Origin: an uncultured Chloroflexia bacterium | GTDB taxonomy: Bacteria; Chloroflexota; Limnocylindria; QHBO01 | Assembly (NCBI GenBank): GCA_963767985.1 | Contig: CAVYGE010000002.1 | Location: forward strand, 457,217 to 521,216 | Length of the DNA: 64,000 bases | Direction of reading: 5' to 3' | Part shown: one piece after another, positions 5,953 through 10,557 of the stretch | How the letters are laid out: each line of letters starts with the position of its first letter | Position numbering within the stretch: the stretch's first letter is position 1 | Notes under the pieces: model-generated | What the model saw: only the letters and a program-made list of their open reading frames with translations | Database searches by the model: none | Told to the model about the DNA's origin: nothing | Made by a program: the position numbers and the translations under genes

Positions 5953-6832
5953 ATGGCGTTCCCCGGCATCGGCATCGCGAAGGGCATGGCCACGACCTTC
6001 CGGAACTTCTTCGCCCCGAAGGTGACGCGGCAGTACCCCGAGGAGCGACCGGAGATCCCGGACCGCTGGCGGGGACGCCTGGACCTGATCTACGACCCCT
6101 TCGGCGAGCACAAGTGCGAGGTGTGCTTCCAGTGCGCGCAGGTCTGCCCGGTCGAGGCCATCGACATGAGCGGGTTCGACTCGCACGGGCAACCGGATCC
6201 GCTACGGCATGCCGGAGATCTACGACGAGCGCAAGGATCCGAACGCCTACCGGCGCGCGGGCCTGGCGGCTCAGCCGATGCGCAACGCCGCGCGGTGGGA
6301 TGAGGAAGTTGATACGCCCTGGGTGGACGGCGTGGTCGAGGCCTTCGGCGGCCGGCCCGAGGCGCTCGTCGCCATCTTCCGCGCCATCGAGGAACGCTAT
6401 GGATACCTCCCGGAGCAGGCGCTGCGCCGCGTCAGCGACCGCATGACGATCCACTGGGCGCAGGTCTTCGGCGCGGCGGGCCTCGGGGGCTTCCGGCTCC
6501 TGCCGACGGCGGGCCACATCGTGACCGTCTGTGACTGCGCCGCCTGTCGCTTCGCGGGCGGAGATCGCCTGCTGGCCGCGATCGAACGGGAGCTCGGCAT
6601 CCGGGCCGGCGAGTCGACGCCGGACGGCGGCTTCACGCTCGAGACCCGGTCCGACGTCGGGTCGGGCGCGATCAGCCCGGCCATGCGGATCGATACGCTG
6701 GTGTACGGGCCGCTCGACGAGGAGAAGGCTCTTCACATCGTCGAGGAGCGTCGTCAGCCGCCACGGCCGGCAGCGGCGCCTGAGAATGGCCAGCACGCTC
6801 TCTCCCCAGATCCGGATCCTCGAAGGCGGTGA
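5953..6832 (+). CDS. nuoI: NuoI N-terminal half (one CxxCxxCxxxCP motif only) running, after an apparent 1-nt frame change at the GGG run 6187-6189, into a NuoE-like thioredoxin-like ferredoxin domain
   Basis: 5953-~6190 encodes ..VTRQYPEERPEIPDRWRGRLDL..KCEVCFQCAQVCPVEAIDMSGFDSHG, a classic NuoI N-terminus. The next frame continues NRIRYGMPEIYDE.. and then ..LVAIFRAIEERYGYLPEQALRRVSDRM..HIVTVCDCAACRFAGGDRLL..GESTPDGGFTLETRSDVGSGAISPAM.. (NuoE-like). If the sequence is correct as given, the two parts are separate ORFs (5953..6303 and 6209..6832). Confidence 0.75.
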
Positions 6833-8151
6833 GTCGCGCCTGCTCACCGATATCGGGCGGGTCGATCCCTCGACCCTGGCGAGCTATCGCGAGCTCGGCG
6901 GCTACGCCGGACTCGAGCGCGCGATCACCAAGCTGGCCCCGGAGGAGGTGATCCTCGACATCGAGGCGGCGAACCTGCGCGGCCGTGGCGGATCGGGCTA
7001 CTCGACCGCGGCCAAGTGGCGCGTCGCGCGCGATGCGGCCGGCGACCGCAAGATCGTCGTCGCCAACCTCATGGCCGCCGATCCGAGCGCGCTCGGCGAT
7101 CGGGCGCTGGCCGAGGGCAATCCGCACCTCGTCGTCGAGGGACTCGTCATCGCGGCCTACGCGGTCGGCGCGAGTGAGGCGATCATCGCCGTGCGCCGGG
7201 ATTGGCCGCTGGCAATCGACCGGCTGCGGACCGCCGTCCGCGAGGCGAGCGACGCCCATCTCGGCGGCTACCTCGTGCTCGGCACCGACGTCAGCGTCCA
7301 GCTCAGCGTGTGGGAGGGATCCGGCGCCTACGTCGCCGGCGAGGAGACGGCGCTGATCAATGCCCTGTCCGGCGATCGGGGCATGCCACTGATCCGGCCG
7401 CCCTACCCGGCCGAGCGCGGCCTCGACGGCGCGCCGACCGTCGTCCAGAACGGCGAGACCCTCGCCCACGTGGCGTGGATCATGGCGCACTCGCCCGAGG
7501 CGTTCGCGTCGGTCGGGCGGCGAGGCCAGCCGCGGGACGAAGCTCGTCACGATCATGGGTCGCGTGGGCCAGGCCGGCCTGGCCGAGGTCCCGCTCGGCA
7601 CGCCACTCATCGATCTGCTCGGCCTGGCCGGTGGCGGGACGGGAACGACCAAGGCGCTGTTCATCGGCGGGCCCGGAGGCGGCGCCGTCGATGCGGGGTC
7701 ACTCAATCTCCCATACGACTACGACTCGCTCGAGGGTGCCGGTGCCATCGTCGGATCGGGCTCGGTGCTCGTGACCGACAGCGACACCTGCATGGTCGAC
7801 ACGGCACGCTTCTTCATCGACTTCAACGCGCGAGAGGCGTGCGGCAAGGCGGTGCCGTGTCGCATCGGCACGAAGCGGCTGGTCGAGACCATGGACCGCA
7901 TCCTCGCCGCAACGCCACGACCGAACGACTTCACCCTCCTGCGCGAGCTGTCGCGCAAGGTCTCCGATACGGCGCTGTGCAAGCTCGAGCGCCTGGCATC
8001 AGGACCGATCCTGACGACGCTCGACCGCTTCGGCGACGAGTACCGGGCGCACGCCGAGCGCGGCGAGTGCCTGGCAGGCGCATGCCGCACCGACGGCGTC
8101 CACCCCCTTCTCGAGCCACTCGCCGGAGTCGATCCGGCGGACGGCGCTTAG
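6786..8151 (+). CDS. NuoF-like (51-kDa-like) subunit, divergent cofactor motifs (apparent frameshift ~7525-7536)
   Basis: ATG 6786 overlaps the NuoE-like ORF end. Motifs: ..NLRGRGGSGYSTAAKW.., ..GSGAYVAGEETALINALSGDRGMPLIRPPYPAERGL.., then after a frame change ..GTKLVTIMGRVGQAGLAEVPLG.., ..EACGKAVPCRIG.., ..ALCKLERLA... Confidence 0.8.
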
Positions 8152-8170
8152 CCTCGCTACGATAGGAACG

Positions 8171-10557
8171 ATGGGCTTCGGAACGACGAACGGTCACGCC
8201 AACGGCAACGGCAGCTCGGGCAGCGGCAAGGCCGATTACACCCCGATCTGGCCGATGGTGCCCGGCACGCGCGAGATCGGCGTCACGATCAACGGCAAGC
8301 AGCTCCAGGTCGAGGAGGGGCAGACGATCCTCCAGGCCTGCCGCGTCCTGGGAATCGACGTCCCGACGCTGTGCTACGAGCCGAAGCTCGCACCGTACGG
8401 CGCCTGCCGCATCTGCGCGGTCGAGGTCGAAGGACGCGACGACACGCCGATCAGCTGCGGGACGGCCAGATCGAGGAGGGGATGGTCATCACCACCCACT
8501 CCGAGCGGGTCATCGAGAACCGGCGCATGGTCCTCGAGCTCATCTTCAGCGACCATGACGCCTACTGCCTCCCTCCGTGCCAGTTCAAGTGCCCGACCCG
8601 CGTCGACATCCCGGGCTACCTGAAGCAGAACACCCTGGGCAACTGGGAGGAGGCGACGCGCATCCTCAAGCGCTCGCTTCCGTTCCCGGCCATCCTCGGC
8701 CGCGTCTGCCCCGCCCCGTGCGAGACCCACTGCCGGCGCGAGGAGGTCGACACCGCCATCGCGATCCGCGACTCGCATCGCTACTGCGCCGACCGCGTCC
8801 TCGAGGTGGACGCCCCCGCCCCGATCCCGTGGCCGAAGGATCCCGCCACCGGCCGGAAGGTCGCGATCATCGGCGCCGGCCCCGCCGGCATGTCGGTCGC
8901 GTACTACCTCCAGCTGCGCGGGCACCAGTGCGACGTGTACGAGGCCGATCCGGAGCAGGGCGGCATGCTGCGCTACGGCATCCCCCAGTACCGACTGCCC
9001 AAGGGATGGATGGATCGCGAGCTGAACCACGTCTGGGAGCTGGGGGCGACCTTCAAGCCGAACATGCGGCTGGGGCGCGACTTCCACCTCGGCGACATCA
9101 TCGACGACTACGACGCCATCTACGTCGGCATCGGCTGCTACAAGCCGAACGAGCTCGGGATCCCGGGCGAAGAGGCCGATGGAACCGTCAACGCCCTGGA
9201 GAACCTCTACAACTCGACCCGCGGCATTCCGGTGCCGCGGCTCAAGGACGCGCGCGTGGTGGTCATCGGCGGTGGCTTCACTGCCATCGACTGCACCCGG
9301 ACCAGCGTCCGGCAGGGCGCGGCCGAGGTCACGCTCGTCTATCGCCGCGACCTCAAGGACATGCCCGCTGCCGACGAGGTGCACGAGGCGATCGAGGAGG
9401 GCGCGCGAGTCATCTTCCAGGCCGCACCGACGCGCATCGTGACCGACGCAGATGACAAGGTGAACGGCGTCGAGTTCCAGCGCATGAAGCTCGGCGAGCC
9501 CGATGCGCAGGGCCGCCGCCGGCCCGAGCCGATGCCGGGCACCGAGTTCATCGTCGAGTGCGACACCGTGCTCGGCGCCATCGGCCAGGGGCCGGAGCTG
9601 TCGTGGATCGAGTCCGAGCCGGAGGAGATCCGCGCCGGCCTCGAGGTCTCACGCCGCGGAACGCTGGAGGCGGAGGAGCACATCTTCCGCACCAACGTCC
9701 CGAAGATCTTCGCGTCGGGCGACGTGCGAACCGGCGCTGCCACGGTGGTCGAGGCGATCGGCGAGGGCCGCCGAGCCAGCTACGCAATGGACTACTGGCT
9801 GCGCGGGCACGACCTGGACGACCCGCAGGTCCGCCGCATCGTGACCGAGCCGCAGCCGAACTTCCTGACCATCGTGCCCTTCACCGACGACGTGAAGGAG
9901 CCGCGGGCGATCATGGGCAAGCAGGAGGCCGACGAGCGCCGCACGAACTTCAACGAGTACGAGTTCGGCTACACCGGCGACCAGGCCATGGCCGAGGCCG
10001 GGCGCTGCCTGCAGTGCACCTGCGAGGCGATCGGCCACTGCGACCTGCGCGAGGCCGCAATCGAGTACGAGACGACGCTCAACATGGCGATCGACGAGCG
10101 CTCGATCCAGGACAACCCGTACGTCGGGGTCAACCACGGCTACGGCCGGGACGAGACGCACTCCTTCATCCTGCGCGACTACTCCCGCTGCATCGACTGC
10201 GGCCGCTGCGCCCAGGTCTGCAAGGAGATCGTGGGCGCCGGCTGCTACGACTTCATCGGCAAGGGCTTCGACTCCCTGGTCACCACCGCCGACTTCGTGT
10301 CACTCAACGAGACGCCGTGTGTCTCCTGCGGACGGTGCGCCGAGACCTGCCCGGTCGGCGCGCTCATGCCGCGGCCGCGCATCCTCGAGACCTACCAGCT
10401 CGACGTCTCCCGCTGCATCTTCTGCGGCATCTGCGCCGACGCCTGCCCGTACGACGCGCTGCGCTGCGGACCCGAGTTCGAGTTCAGCGAGTACCAGCGC
10501 GACCTGCCGATGCTGGACATCCTCGAGATGAGTGACCGGGAGCGCCCCACCCGCTAG
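8171..10557 (+). CDS. fusion protein: NuoG-type [2Fe-2S] domain + GltD/NfnB-like FAD-NAD(P)H module + NuoG-type [4Fe-4S] domains + NuoI C-terminal half (apparent 1-nt deletion ~8455-8466)
   Basis: 8270-8460: ..VTINGKQLQVEEGQTILQACRVLGIDVPTLCYEPKLAPYGACRICAVEVEG.. 8566-9810: ..CPTRVDIPGYL..GRVCPAPCETHC..KVAIIGAGPAGMSVAYYL..VVVIGGGFTAIDC..LVYRR..IFASGDV.. ~10000-10368: ..CLQCTCEAIGHCDLRE..RCIDCGRCAQVC..CVSCGRCAETCPVGAL.. 10369-10554: ..ETYQLDVSRCIFCGICADACPYDALRCGPEFEFSEYQRDLPMLDI.. Confidence 0.8.

What the first reader, a model, noticed from the sequence alone, without database searches (positions are those of the whole stretch)
5953..10557. nuoI appears split in two around an inserted NuoE/NuoF/NuoG-like electron-input module
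The ORF at 5953 encodes a classic NuoI N-terminus (..VTRQYPEERPEIPDRWRGRLDL..KCEVCFQCAQVCPVEAIDM..) but only one CxxCxxCxxxCP motif. Where the second motif should follow (after ..FDSHG/NRIRYG) the reading frame runs into a NuoE-like domain.

The missing second motif, with the characteristic NuoI tail (..ETYQLDVSRCIFCGICADACPYDALRCGPEFEFSEYQRDLPMLDI..), turns up 4.2 kb downstream. There it is the in-frame C-terminus of ORF 8171..10557, after NuoF-like and NuoG-like/GltD-like sequences. The gene order is therefore nuoA-B-C-D-H-I(N)::E' - F' - G'::GltD'::I(C), then J-K-L-M-N. This looks like an 11-gene-type nuo operon that took up an input module inside nuoI.

In Nqo9/NuoI each [4Fe-4S] cluster (N6a/N6b) is bound by three Cys of one motif and one Cys of the other. 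The two halves would therefore have to reassemble from different polypeptides. I do not recognise this arrangement as described, but I cannot search for it.
Basis: partly seen in the sequence, partly recalled or inferred. Interest (0 to 1): 0.9.

Follow-up and report, generated by a model that had tools for sequence, protein, structure and literature searches.

The report
Naturally split NuoI in complex I
In these soil Chloroflexota the small iron-sulfur subunit NuoI of respiratory complex I is encoded as two halves, each fused to a subunit of an NAD(P)H-oxidising module borrowed from soluble transhydrogenases; I found no published description of this conserved way of wiring an electron-input module onto the proton pump.

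Summary
The window carries nuoA-B-C-D-H, then I(N)::NuoE-like, NuoF-like and NuoG-N-terminus::GltD::2x[4Fe-4S]::I(C), then nuoJ-N.

- **The two halves make one NuoI.** Joined in silico, they align as one colinear stretch to E. coli NuoI 23-128 (E 7e-27). They cover abutting parts of the NuoI profile (positions 1-73 and 71-112).
- **The arrangement is conserved.** It is intact in at least 243 species-level genomes, almost all named Limnocylindria or Chloroflexota. All 83 loci I fetched keep the same gene order. Variants occur in Thermoleophilia and in two unnamed lineages.
- **The window's reading-frame breaks look like errors.** There are five (nuoB, nuoC and all three module genes), all extra bases absent from the relatives compared. 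dN/dS is 0.05-0.18, the same as between intact relatives.
- **The inserted module is not classical NuoEFG.** Its closest solved relatives are the soluble NfnABC/StnABC (Bfu-family) transhydrogenases. NfnA/StnC's C-terminal FdhF-like domain is replaced here by I(C).

Most likely mechanism (inferred): the halves reassemble into the N6a/N6b domain and staple an NADPH(FAD)/NADH(FMN) input module onto the quinone module.

I found no prior description. The closest concept is the predicted "Nuo-Bfu", which has an intact NuoI. I rate it a new variant of a known kind.

The parts
1991..2356 (+). nuoA (121 aa, intact)
   Evidence: tblastn with L001/L002 NuoA gives 92-97% identity. PF00507 is recorded in the relatives.
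2347..3007 (+). nuoB. It carries one extra base at about 2511-2523 (frame change). The N2-cluster cysteines (SCC, GTC, GCP) are present.
   Evidence: Two tblastn pieces lie in different frames. The DNA alignment shows an extra T versus L001/L002.
2947..3646 (+). nuoC. It carries one extra base at about 3306-3325 (frame change). The start is ambiguous (2947 or about 3133).
3643..4929 (+). nuoD (428 aa, intact)
   Evidence: 88-92% identity to relatives over the full length.
4930..5940 (+). nuoH (336 aa, intact)
5953..6210 (+). I(N): the N-terminal half of NuoI. It comprises the N-terminal helix, PxRxRG, the first CxxCxxCxxxCP motif at 6115-6150, and the strand GNRIRYG. There is an extra C at about 6186.
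   Evidence: Residues 18-80 align to E. coli NuoI 23-85, E 5e-13. TIGR01971 profile positions 1-73 match. The segment is nearly invariant in 81 species.
6211..6832 (+). A conserved linker, then the NuoE/BfuC-like thioredoxin-like domain (E'), in one polypeptide with I(N). The [2Fe-2S] ligand set is non-canonical: CxCxxC at 6527-6553, and the second Cys pair is replaced by D..G at 6653-6682.
   Evidence: PF01257, E 2e-24. Intact 273-286 aa homologues are found. The best fold matches are HydC, StnA and NfnC.
6786..8151 (+). F': a NuoF/BfuB-like flavoprotein core with an extra base at about 7515. It lacks the N- and C-terminal FeS domains of StnB. The NADEGDPGAF motif is changed (7062-7094). The N3 motif is CGKAVPC, with only three Cys (7837-7869).
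   Evidence: PF01512, PF10531 and PF10589 match. The best solved relatives are NfnB 9bov_B and StnB 8oh5_B, residues 106-525 of 584.
8171..10386 (+). G'::GltD': an NfnA/StnC-like subunit, with two extra bases at about 8464.
- [2Fe-2S] domain
- GltD-type insertion: FAD GxGxxG at 8866-8889; NADPH GGGxxA at 9262-9285; YRR at 9337-9351
- CLQCTC..C motif at 10003-10041
- HydA-type 2x[4Fe-4S] domain (M1 at 10189-10221, M2 at 10318-10353)
   Evidence: Pfam hits. Residues 36-760 align to NfnA 9bov_A 2-699 (E 1e-167) and to StnC 8oh5_C (E 9e-151), with all ligand Cys/His aligned. The ligands are invariant in 43 homologues.
10387..10557 (+). I(C): the C-terminal half of NuoI. It comprises the strand ETYQLDV, the second CxxCxxCxxxCP motif at 10414-10449, and the NuoI tail GPEFEFSEY at 10468-10494. 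It is fused in frame to the end of G'.
   Evidence: It aligns to the second half of NuoI/TYKY including the tail. TIGR01971 profile positions 71-112 match. The last 125 aa are almost invariant in 42 species.
10612..10974 (-). A 120-aa lipoprotein-like ORF that interrupts the operon between I(C) and nuoJ. It is not part of the complex; this spacer region varies between relatives.
   Evidence: ORF and translation. There are no Pfam or NCBIfam hits. Relatives carry different genes here.
11165..11647 (+). nuoJ
11650..11955 (+). nuoK
11960..14188 (+). nuoL (742 aa), with a His/Asp-rich insertion after the first transmembrane helix
14188..17149 (+). nuoM and nuoN. Approximate limits are nuoM 14188-15708 and nuoN 15710-17149.
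   Evidence: ORFs and frame plot. Weak NuoL paralogue hits fall at 14863-15660 and 15920-17017.

Best explanation
The locus encodes a lineage-wide, non-canonical respiratory complex I.

**Architecture**
- Its membrane arm and quinone module (NuoA, B, C, D, H, J-N) are ordinary.
- The 2x[4Fe-4S] connector subunit NuoI exists only as two half-proteins.
- The N-half (N-terminal helix plus first Cys motif) is the N-terminus of a NuoE/BfuC-like subunit.
- The C-half (second Cys motif plus NuoI tail) is the C-terminus of an NfnA/StnC-like subunit. That subunit is a NuoG-type [2Fe-2S]/[4Fe-4S] domain with an inserted GltD-type FAD/NADPH domain.
- A NuoF/BfuB-like flavoprotein is encoded between them.

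**Inferred mechanism**
- The two halves fold together into one NuoI-like domain that carries clusters N6a and N6b.
- In this ferredoxin fold each cluster takes three Cys from one motif and one from the other. The domain therefore acts both as the electron wire and as a clasp tying the input module to the quinone module.
- This clasp would replace the docking normally supplied by the large C-terminal domain of NuoG, which is absent here.
- Electrons from NADPH enter at the FAD of the GltD domain. Electrons probably also enter from NADH at the FMN of F'.
- They run through the NfnA-type FeS chain to N6a/N6b, then to N2 in NuoB and to quinone.

**Bifurcation**
By the published Bfu criteria the Limnocylindria form is a stripped, non-bifurcating version, because F' lacks the extra FeS domains. 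The Thermoleophilia form keeps a full bifurcating-type BfuB.

**Frameshifts**
The five frameshifts in this window are sequencing or assembly indels, not biology.
For: **Shown**
- Domain content is confirmed.
- The spliced halves align as one colinear stretch, with a one-residue gap, to E. coli NuoI 23-128 at 97 bits and E 7e-27. Each half alone scores about 50 bits.
- The halves match NuoI profile TIGR01971 at positions 1-73 and 71-112, 55.9 bits each, against a whole-protein cut-off of 113.
- Spliced Thermoleophilia halves give the same colinear result.
- The I(N)::E fusion is intact in more than 500 database proteins, with a nearly invariant junction.
- 243 GTDB species representatives carry it.
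- All 83 fetched loci keep the order A-B-C-D-H-IE-F-G-J-K-L, with no separate nuoI.
- The same design occurs with different domain fusions in L084, L085, L086 and L087, where nuoJ follows directly.
- I(N) and the last 125 aa of G' are the most conserved parts of the module.
- dN/dS is 0.05-0.18 in all genes, including the window's copy.
- The closest solved relatives are NfnABC/StnABC for all three subunits, with every FeS ligand of NfnA/StnC up to residue ~700 conserved.
- StnC's FdhF-like domain and its C1/C2 clusters are described as a dead-end branch (PMC10482914).
- Among the 83 fetched loci, every F or G copy split between reading frames is in a MAG of the MFD series. Their short-read counterparts are intact.

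**Inferred**
- Reassembly of the halves.
- The clasp role.
- The direction of electron flow and the donor specificity. NADPH is suggested by the conserved GGGxxA...YRR motif, which aligns with the NADPH site of StnC/NfnA.
Against: - There is no biochemical or structural evidence; all sequences come from uncultured MAGs.
- Structure prediction gave no support either way.
  - The G' model was poor in all FeS regions, pLDDT 20-30.
  - I(N) was low-confidence on its own.
- F' in Limnocylindria has a non-canonical flavin/NADH-site motif (NLMGADPSSL instead of NADEGDPGAF). It also has only three Cys at cluster N3, so NADH input through F' is uncertain.
- E' lacks a full [2Fe-2S] ligand set.
- The spacing of motifs M2 and M3 inside G' would also allow them to pair with each other as a clostridial-type ferredoxin unit (alignments).
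- A second, intact nuoI or a second nuo operon elsewhere in these genomes could not be excluded.
Confidence: 0.78

Rival explanations
1. The halves do not pair with each other. M2 and M3 inside G' form a self-contained 2x[4Fe-4S] ferredoxin unit. M1 binds a single N4-like cluster. The lone motif of I(N) binds one cluster with other ligands, or none, so I(N) acts only as a membrane-proximal anchor.
For: Polyferredoxin hits align M2+M3 as one regular two-motif unit, with a typical spacer of about 21 residues. NuoG itself keeps only one cluster in the homologous domain (general knowledge of Nqo3).
Against: - M1+M2 align residue for residue with the two-cluster HydA-type domain of the solved NfnA/StnC.
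- The spliced I(N)+I(C) reproduces NuoI seamlessly, including non-Cys residues and the tail. It scores twice as high as either half.
- Both halves are co-conserved in every lineage, even in the non-nuo Por-type cluster.
Confidence: 0.1
2. The window's copy, or the whole family, is a decaying or non-functional paralogue. The organism's working complex I uses an intact nuoI and canonical nuoEFG encoded elsewhere.
For: There are five frameshifts in about 6 kb of this window. The rest of the genome could not be searched.
Against: - The same genes are intact in relatives.
- dN/dS for the window's copy (0.05-0.18) equals that between intact relatives.
- The frameshifts also hit nuoB and nuoC.
- All five are extra bases absent from the relatives compared.
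- Among the fetched loci, frameshifted F or G copies are seen only in MAGs of the MFD series.
- Two acyltransferase genes elsewhere in the window look truncated in the same way.
- The nearest database relatives of I(N) are all split forms; none is an intact NuoI.
Confidence: 0.04
3. The join is an assembly chimera or a local misassembly.
For: Nothing beyond the frameshifts in this one window.
Against: Independent assemblies from ENA, NCBI, JGI and Logan show identical junctions and gene order. They cover both short- and long-read data and 243 species-level genomes.
Confidence: 0.01
4. The enzyme runs mainly in reverse. It would use proton-motive force to drive electrons from quinol to NADP+ (and, in the Thermoleophilia form, to ferredoxin), so that it makes NADPH rather than feeding respiration.
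For: - Complex I is reversible (general knowledge).
- The GltD/NfnA module works reversibly in Nfn/Stn enzymes (PMC10482914).
- Schut et al. discuss membrane-bound Bfu complexes (PMC9304861).
Against: No sequence feature distinguishes the direction. The organisms carrying it are known only as MAGs, so their physiology gives no guide either. This concerns the direction of the same machine, not a different architecture.
Confidence: 0.15

Closest known systems
Canonical 14-subunit complex I (NuoA-N; T. thermophilus Nqo1-14, E. coli Nuo)
   Same: - The membrane arm and quinone module are the same (NuoA, B, C, D, H, J-N).
- There is a NuoI-type N6a/N6b domain by sequence.
- There is a NuoF-like flavoprotein, a NuoE-like thioredoxin-fold subunit and a NuoG-type N-terminal FeS domain.
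   Different: - NuoI is not a separate gene; it is split across two other subunits.
- The input genes sit inside nuoI instead of between nuoD and nuoH.
- NuoG's large molybdopterin-like C-terminal domain is absent.
- A GltD-type FAD/NADPH domain is present.
- E', F' and G' all score below NCBI's NuoE/F/G cut-offs.
NfnABC / StnABC (Nfn-Bfu) electron-bifurcating transhydrogenases (PDB 9BOV/9BP5, 8OH5, 9N5U)
   Same: - They are the best solved relatives of all three module subunits.
- G' residues 36-760 match NfnA 2-699, with all FeS ligands, the FAD site and the NADPH site conserved.
- F' matches the NfnB/StnB core; E' matches NfnC/StnA.
   Different: - Those enzymes are soluble, reduce ferredoxin and carry an FdhF-like C-terminal domain on subunit A. 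Here that domain is replaced by I(C), and subunit C gains I(N).
- In Limnocylindria, F' lacks the N-terminal [2Fe-2S] domain and the C-terminal 2x[4Fe-4S] domain that define bifurcating BfuB (criteria in PMC9304861).
- The Thermoleophilia variant keeps them.
Predicted 'Nuo-Bfu' complexes (Schut et al. 2022, PMC9304861; Geobacter, Deferribacteres, Planctomycetes, Nitrospirae)
   Same: The concept is the same: a complex I whose NADH module is a Bfu-type BfuABC set encoded in the middle of the nuo cluster.
   Different: Nuo-Bfu is described as a 14-subunit A-N cluster. The paper mentions neither a split NuoI nor an Nfn-type (GltD-containing) BfuA. The phyla are different.
11-subunit complex I-like enzymes (cyanobacterial/plastid NDH-1, Fpo, 11-gene nuo operons)
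   Same: The backbone gene order A-B-C-D-H-I-J-K-L-M-N is the same, without nuoEFG between D and H (PMC3144371).
   Different: Those have an intact NuoI/NdhI/FpoI and use separate or no dedicated input subunits. Here an input module is integrated into nuoI itself.

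Membership tests
NuoI / TYKY / Nqo9 (complex I 2x[4Fe-4S] subunit) | Two CxxCxxCxxxCP motifs in one polypeptide of about 150-180 aa | tested here: not met
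   Each polypeptide carries only one NuoI-type motif (6115-6150 and 10414-10449). No single-chain NuoI is present in the operon or the window.
NuoI / TYKY / Nqo9 (complex I 2x[4Fe-4S] subunit) | Sequence match to the family over its full length, including the N-terminal helix, PxRxRG and the C-terminal tail | tested here: met
   This is met only by the two halves taken together. The spliced sequence aligns as one stretch to E. coli NuoI 23-128, E 7e-27. TIGR01971 positions 1-73 and 71-112 match at 55.9 + 55.9 bits, against a cut-off of 113.
NuoI / TYKY / Nqo9 (complex I 2x[4Fe-4S] subunit) | Binds clusters N6a/N6b and sits between NuoG and NuoB in the assembled complex | not testable with these tools
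   This needs a structure or spectroscopy.
Respiratory complex I (NADH:quinone oxidoreductase, Nuo) | A full set of membrane and Q-module subunits A, B, C, D, H, J, K, L, M, N in one locus, with the N2-cluster cysteines in NuoB | tested here: met
Respiratory complex I (NADH:quinone oxidoreductase, Nuo) | Canonical NuoE, NuoF and NuoG reaching the family (equivalog) cut-offs | tested here: not met
   - nuoF_fam: 339 bits against a cut-off of 559.
- NuoE: 73 against 141.
- NuoG: 99 against 470, N-terminal domain only.
Bfu family (BfuABC: HydABC, NfnABC/StnABC) as defined by Schut et al. 2022 | BfuA/B/C homologues encoded together | tested here: met
   The best solved relatives of E', F' and G' are NfnC/StnA, NfnB/StnB and NfnA/StnC.
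Bfu family (BfuABC: HydABC, NfnABC/StnABC) as defined by Schut et al. 2022 | A bifurcating BfuB core with the extra B2-B5 clusters (N-terminal [2Fe-2S] domain and C-terminal 2x[4Fe-4S] domain) | tested here: not met
   The window/Limnocylindria F' (about 454 aa) covers only StnB/NfnB residues 106-525 and lacks both domains. The feature is met in the Thermoleophilia variant (L086/L087, 636-643 aa).
Bfu family (BfuABC: HydABC, NfnABC/StnABC) as defined by Schut et al. 2022 | Ferredoxin- and NAD-dependent electron bifurcation activity | not testable with these tools
   This is an enzymological property.
GltD / NfnB-type NADPH-binding FeS flavoprotein domain | Fer4_20 FeS region plus two Rossmann folds: GxGxxG for FAD, and GGGxxA...YRR for NADPH | tested here: met
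   PF14691 and PF07992 match. The motifs lie at 8866-8889, 9262-9285 and 9337-9351. They align with the StnC/NfnA NADPH site and are invariant in 43 homologues.

The most novel reading that the evidence does not exclude
The cassette I(N)::E - F - G::I(C) is an evolutionarily mobile 'plug'.
- Its naturally split ferredoxin domain lets a flavin-based NAD(P)H/ferredoxin module dock onto different partner enzymes.
- In Thermoleophilia the cassette keeps a complete bifurcating-type BfuB. There it would make a proton-pumping complex I that confurcates electrons from NADPH/NADH and ferredoxin onto quinone, or the reverse.
- The same split domain also connects the module to a pyruvate:ferredoxin oxidoreductase in another lineage (L089).
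- This would be an independent, third route by which the 11-subunit core acquired an input module.
Probability: 0.3. Interest if true: 0.9.

Novelty: new variant of a known kind. Interest (0 to 1): 0.75.

Why it matters
1. **Evolution of complex I.** This would be an independent way for the 11-subunit core to acquire an electron-input module: integration into nuoI, not insertion between nuoD and nuoH. The donor would be an Nfn/Stn-type transhydrogenase. It gives a concrete, testable case for the modular-evolution model.
2. **Protein architecture.** A core two-cluster ferredoxin domain, each of whose clusters needs cysteines from both halves, is stably encoded on two different polypeptides in hundreds of species. 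That is a natural precedent for split Fe-S proteins and for domain-swapped 'clasps' that hold modules together.
3. **Physiology.** The highly conserved FAD/NADPH domain suggests that a very widespread group of uncultured Chloroflexota, recovered largely from soil metagenomes, feeds NADPH directly into a proton-pumping complex I or makes NADPH from it.
4. **Annotation.** Pipelines name these proteins 'NuoE', 'formate dehydrogenase major subunit' or 'FAD-dependent oxidoreductase'. They would score complex I as lacking NuoI and NuoG, which misleads metabolic reconstructions of these lineages.

Tried and rejected
- **Exact look-up of the window's NuoH:** not on record.
- **AlphaFold of G' with 43 homologues:** mean pLDDT 54.7 and FeS regions 20-30, so it was unusable and I did not run a fold search on it.
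- **AlphaFold of I(N)E:** only the E' domain was confident. Its fold search merely confirmed the BfuC/NuoE fold.
- **Promoter/terminator scan of the I(C)-nuoJ spacer:** nothing found.
- **Programmed frameshifting:** rejected. Relatives have no frameshift at any of the five sites, and the sites differ in sequence.
- **Module-specific decay:** rejected. nuoB and nuoC are hit too, and dN/dS is low.
- **Second nuoI elsewhere in a Limnocylindria genome:** The nearest I(N)-only hits in the representative library turned out to be truncated or frameshifted split proteins, not intact NuoI.
- **Literature:** nine full-text searches and five papers consulted found no description of a split NuoI or of an Nfn-type module in a nuo operon. 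Papers outside the held library cannot be excluded.
- **GC3-based frameshift count for the rest of the window:** too noisy to give a number. It yielded only suggestive cases.

Full report
**1. What is in the window**

The window is 65-74% G+C. It carries a plus-strand nuo operon.
- nuoA lies at 1991-2356, nuoB at about 2347-3007 and nuoC at about 2947-3646.
- nuoD lies at 3643-4929 and nuoH at 4930-5940.
- Three unusual genes occupy 5953-10557.
- A small minus-strand ORF lies at 10612-10974.
- nuoJ, K, L, M and N follow.

- There is a single Fer4 motif at the start of the first protein, followed by 2Fe-2S_thioredx (PF01257, E 2e-24).
- The second protein has Complex1_51K, SLBB and NADH_4Fe-4S.
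- The third has Fer2_4, the start of NADH-G_4Fe-4S_3, Fer4_20 and Pyr_redox_2, then three Fer4 motifs.

**2. The frameshifts are almost certainly errors**

None of the three module genes is one ORF in this window.
- Intact homologues show frame changes at about 6186, 7515 and 8464.
- Two more lie in nuoB (~2511) and nuoC (~3310-3325).
- DNA alignments show that all five are extra bases (+1, +1, +1, +1, +2) absent from the relatives compared.
- At 6186 the window reads CA[C]GGGC where relatives read CAG GGC.

Three further points argue against real pseudogenes.
- Among the 83 related loci fetched, every F or G copy split between reading frames is in a MAG of the MFD series. The isolate names suggest a single long-read project, but I did not verify this.
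- dN/dS between the window and its relatives L007 and L009 is 0.05-0.18 for every nuo gene, including the five frameshifted ones. That matches the values between intact relatives.
- Two acyltransferase genes at 30.0-31.9 kb also look truncated by frame changes.

I therefore treat the indels as assembly errors and not as decay or programmed frameshifting. Read-level confirmation was not possible.

**3. The two halves add up to exactly one NuoI**

- The N-terminal 80 residues align to E. coli NuoI 23-85 (E 5e-13) and to mitochondrial TYKY. The match includes the NuoI-specific region upstream of the first Cys motif.
- The C-terminal 56 residues of the third protein align to the second half of NuoI/TYKY, including the tail after the motif.
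- Joined in silico at ...GNRIRYG | ETYQLDVSRC..., the halves align as a single colinear stretch, with one 1-residue gap, to E. coli NuoI 23-128. The score is 97 bits (E 7e-27), about twice that of either half. Apart from one polyferredoxin, all the top hits are complex I NuoI/TYKY chains.
- NCBI's NuoI profile TIGR01971 is matched at positions 1-73 by the first protein and at positions 71-112 by the third. Each scores 55.9 bits, against a whole-protein cut-off of 113.
- No other NuoI-like sequence exists in the 64-kb window.

**4. The arrangement is conserved and intact elsewhere**

- The reconstructed I(N)::E protein has more than 500 database homologues. The 120 best listed share 79-89% identity and are intact at 271-289 aa, and the junction is nearly invariant.
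- Two long contigs show the operon A-B-C-D-H-[IE 277 aa]-[F 454-457 aa]-[G 796-798 aa]-variable small genes-J-K-L-M.
- A scan of one genome per GTDB species found 243 genomes encoding the fusion. Nearly all are named Candidatus Limnocylindria or Chloroflexota, and one is a closed 2.09-Mb chromosome.
- All 83 loci keep the same order, and none has a separate nuoI.
- I(N) and the last 125 residues of G' are close to invariant across species whose F' and E' differ much more.

**5. The same design exists in distant lineages, with variations**

An exhaustive profile-free search of 1.84 billion representatives found I(N)::E proteins at 30-51% identity. Their contexts are as follows.
- **L085, a second Limnocylindria-type group.** The order is D-H-IE-F-[G/GltD/I(C), 861 aa]-J-K.
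- **L084, a low-G+C organism.** The order is H-IE-[E2::F::GltD, 1048 aa]-[small NuoG-N-terminus::I(C), 265 aa]-J-K-L-M-N.
- **L086 and L087 (L086 is from a MAG named Thermoleophilia).** The order is A-B-C-D-H-IE-[F of 636-643 aa with an N-terminal [2Fe-2S] domain and a C-terminal 2x[4Fe-4S] domain]-[G/GltD/I(C)]-J-K-L-M. N follows in L086; L087 ends inside M.

In these four loci nuoJ follows directly and no intact nuoI is present. Spliced Thermoleophilia halves again align colinearly with NuoI/TYKY.

**6. What the inserted module is**

Its closest solved relatives are not complex I subunits. They are the soluble Bfu-family transhydrogenases.
- G' residues 36-760 align to NfnA of Caldicellulosiruptor saccharolyticus (9BOV/9BP5, E 1e-167), to StnC of Sporomusa ovata (8OH5, E 9e-151) and to Thermococcus sibiricus NfnA (9N5U). 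All FeS-ligand Cys/His, the FAD site and the NADPH site are aligned. They are invariant in 43 homologues.
- F' aligns best to NfnB/StnB/HydB (404-416 bits), against about 275 bits for complex I NuoF.
- The E' domain's best fold matches are HydC, StnA and NfnC.

In StnC the region after residue ~683 is an inactive FdhF-like domain, and its clusters C1/C2 form a dead-end branch (PMC10482914). Here that domain is replaced by I(C). I infer that the dead-end branch has become the exit towards the quinone site.

**7. Features that bear on mechanism**

- The Limnocylindria F' covers only StnB residues 106-525. It lacks the extra FeS domains that Schut et al. use to define bifurcating BfuB (PMC9304861).
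- Its NADEGDPGAF motif is NLMGADPSSL, and its N3 motif CGKCxxC is CGKAVPC. Both changes are conserved within the lineage.
- E' keeps CxCxxC but has lost the second Cys pair.
- By contrast, the GltD domain and all G' FeS sites are almost invariant.

NADPH entry through the FAD is therefore the best-supported input. NADH entry through F' is plausible but uncertain. The Thermoleophilia form, with a complete BfuB, could in principle couple ferredoxin as well.

**8. Proposed mechanism (inferred)**

- I(N) and I(C) co-fold into the N6a/N6b domain. Each cluster needs Cys from both motifs, so the domain can form only at the interface of the two polypeptides.
- It therefore acts both as the wire to N2 and as a covalent clasp. 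It ties the E'-F' side and the G' side of the input module to the quinone module.
- This would compensate for the missing NuoG C-terminal domain.
- Structure prediction could not test the idea.
- The main rival is pairing of M2 with M3 inside G'. The motif spacing allows it, but homology of M1+M2 to the solved two-cluster domain argues against it, as does the seamless NuoI alignment of the halves.

**9. Novelty**

- Nine literature searches and five papers consulted found no description of a split NuoI or of an Nfn-type module inside a nuo operon.
- The nearest published idea is the predicted 14-subunit 'Nuo-Bfu' of Geobacter and others. There BfuABC replaces NuoEFG in a 14-subunit A-N cluster; the paper does not mention a split NuoI.
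- Database names for these proteins ('NuoE', 'formate dehydrogenase major subunit', 'FAD-dependent oxidoreductase', 'GltD-like/formate hydrogenlyase subunit 6') show that pipelines do not recognise the arrangement.
- I classify it as a new variant of a known kind. It is complex I with an alternative input module, and its notable structural feature is a split core Fe-S subunit.

**10. Limits**

- Everything rests on sequences from uncultured organisms.
- The rest of these genomes could not be searched for a second complex I.
- Donor specificity, direction of electron flow and reassembly of the halves are inferences.

Noticed in passing
L089:1804-7726 and L090 (ENA ERZ27313369 / ERZ27313387): The same split NuoI-like halves occur outside any visible nuo context.
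- A 280-aa half-ferredoxin::NuoE-like protein and a 634-aa full BfuB are followed by a 1060-aa G/GltD protein.
- In that protein a C-half motif is followed by a fused PorB-like TPP domain.
- The genes lie next to PorD-like and PorA genes.
- The spliced halves align colinearly to E. coli NuoI 41-131 (E 7e-13).

This suggests that the cassette with its split connector is mobile between partner enzymes.
   Followed up: partly
window:10612-10974 (minus strand): A 120-aa lipoprotein-like ORF (signal peptide plus LAAC lipobox) with no Pfam or NCBIfam hit sits between G'::I(C) and nuoJ.
- Relatives carry different, non-homologous small genes at this spot.
- Distant lineages have none.
- In Limnocylindria the operon therefore seems to be a hotspot for insertions, and may be two transcription units.
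   Followed up: partly
window:6527-6553 and 6653-6682; compare L084-L087 and P0135: The NuoE-like [2Fe-2S] site is being remodelled across lineages.
- L084/L086 types have the canonical CxxxxC...CxxxC.
- The second Limnocylindria group has CxCxxC...C.
- The window's group has CxCxxC with Asp/Gly in place of the second pair.
   Followed up: partly
window:7837-7869 and 7062-7094: F' has only three Cys at the N3 cluster site (CGKAVPC). It also has a changed flavin/NADH-site motif (NLMAADPSAL in the window) in place of NADEGDPGAF. Both changes are conserved in the two Limnocylindria groups but not in the Thermoleophilia or low-GC variants.
   Followed up: partly
window:11960-14188 (nuoL), residues ~27-135: NuoL carries an insertion of about 110 residues after its first transmembrane helix. 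It is rich in His and Asp (HGHHADHDDDDDHADAAHGKQ...).
   Followed up: no
window:30025-31887: Two tandem Lip_A_acyltrans (PF03279) genes have Pfam matches that begin only at profile positions 104 and 162. The upstream coding signal lies in other frames. These are probably further indel errors outside the nuo operon.
   Followed up: partly
window:6786-6832: The I(N)E reading frame overlaps the F' start codon by 47 nt in the window. In L001 and L002 the overlap is 1 nt. The C-terminal tail of I(N)E varies in length between species (273-292 aa).
   Followed up: no
one search hit list; L085: Limnocylindria-type MAGs hold two clearly separate groups of the G'::I(C) protein: about 796 aa, and about 850-890 aa at about 60% identity. 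Their I(N)E partners are matched in the same way (37% identity). I did not determine whether both operons can occur in one genome.
   Followed up: no
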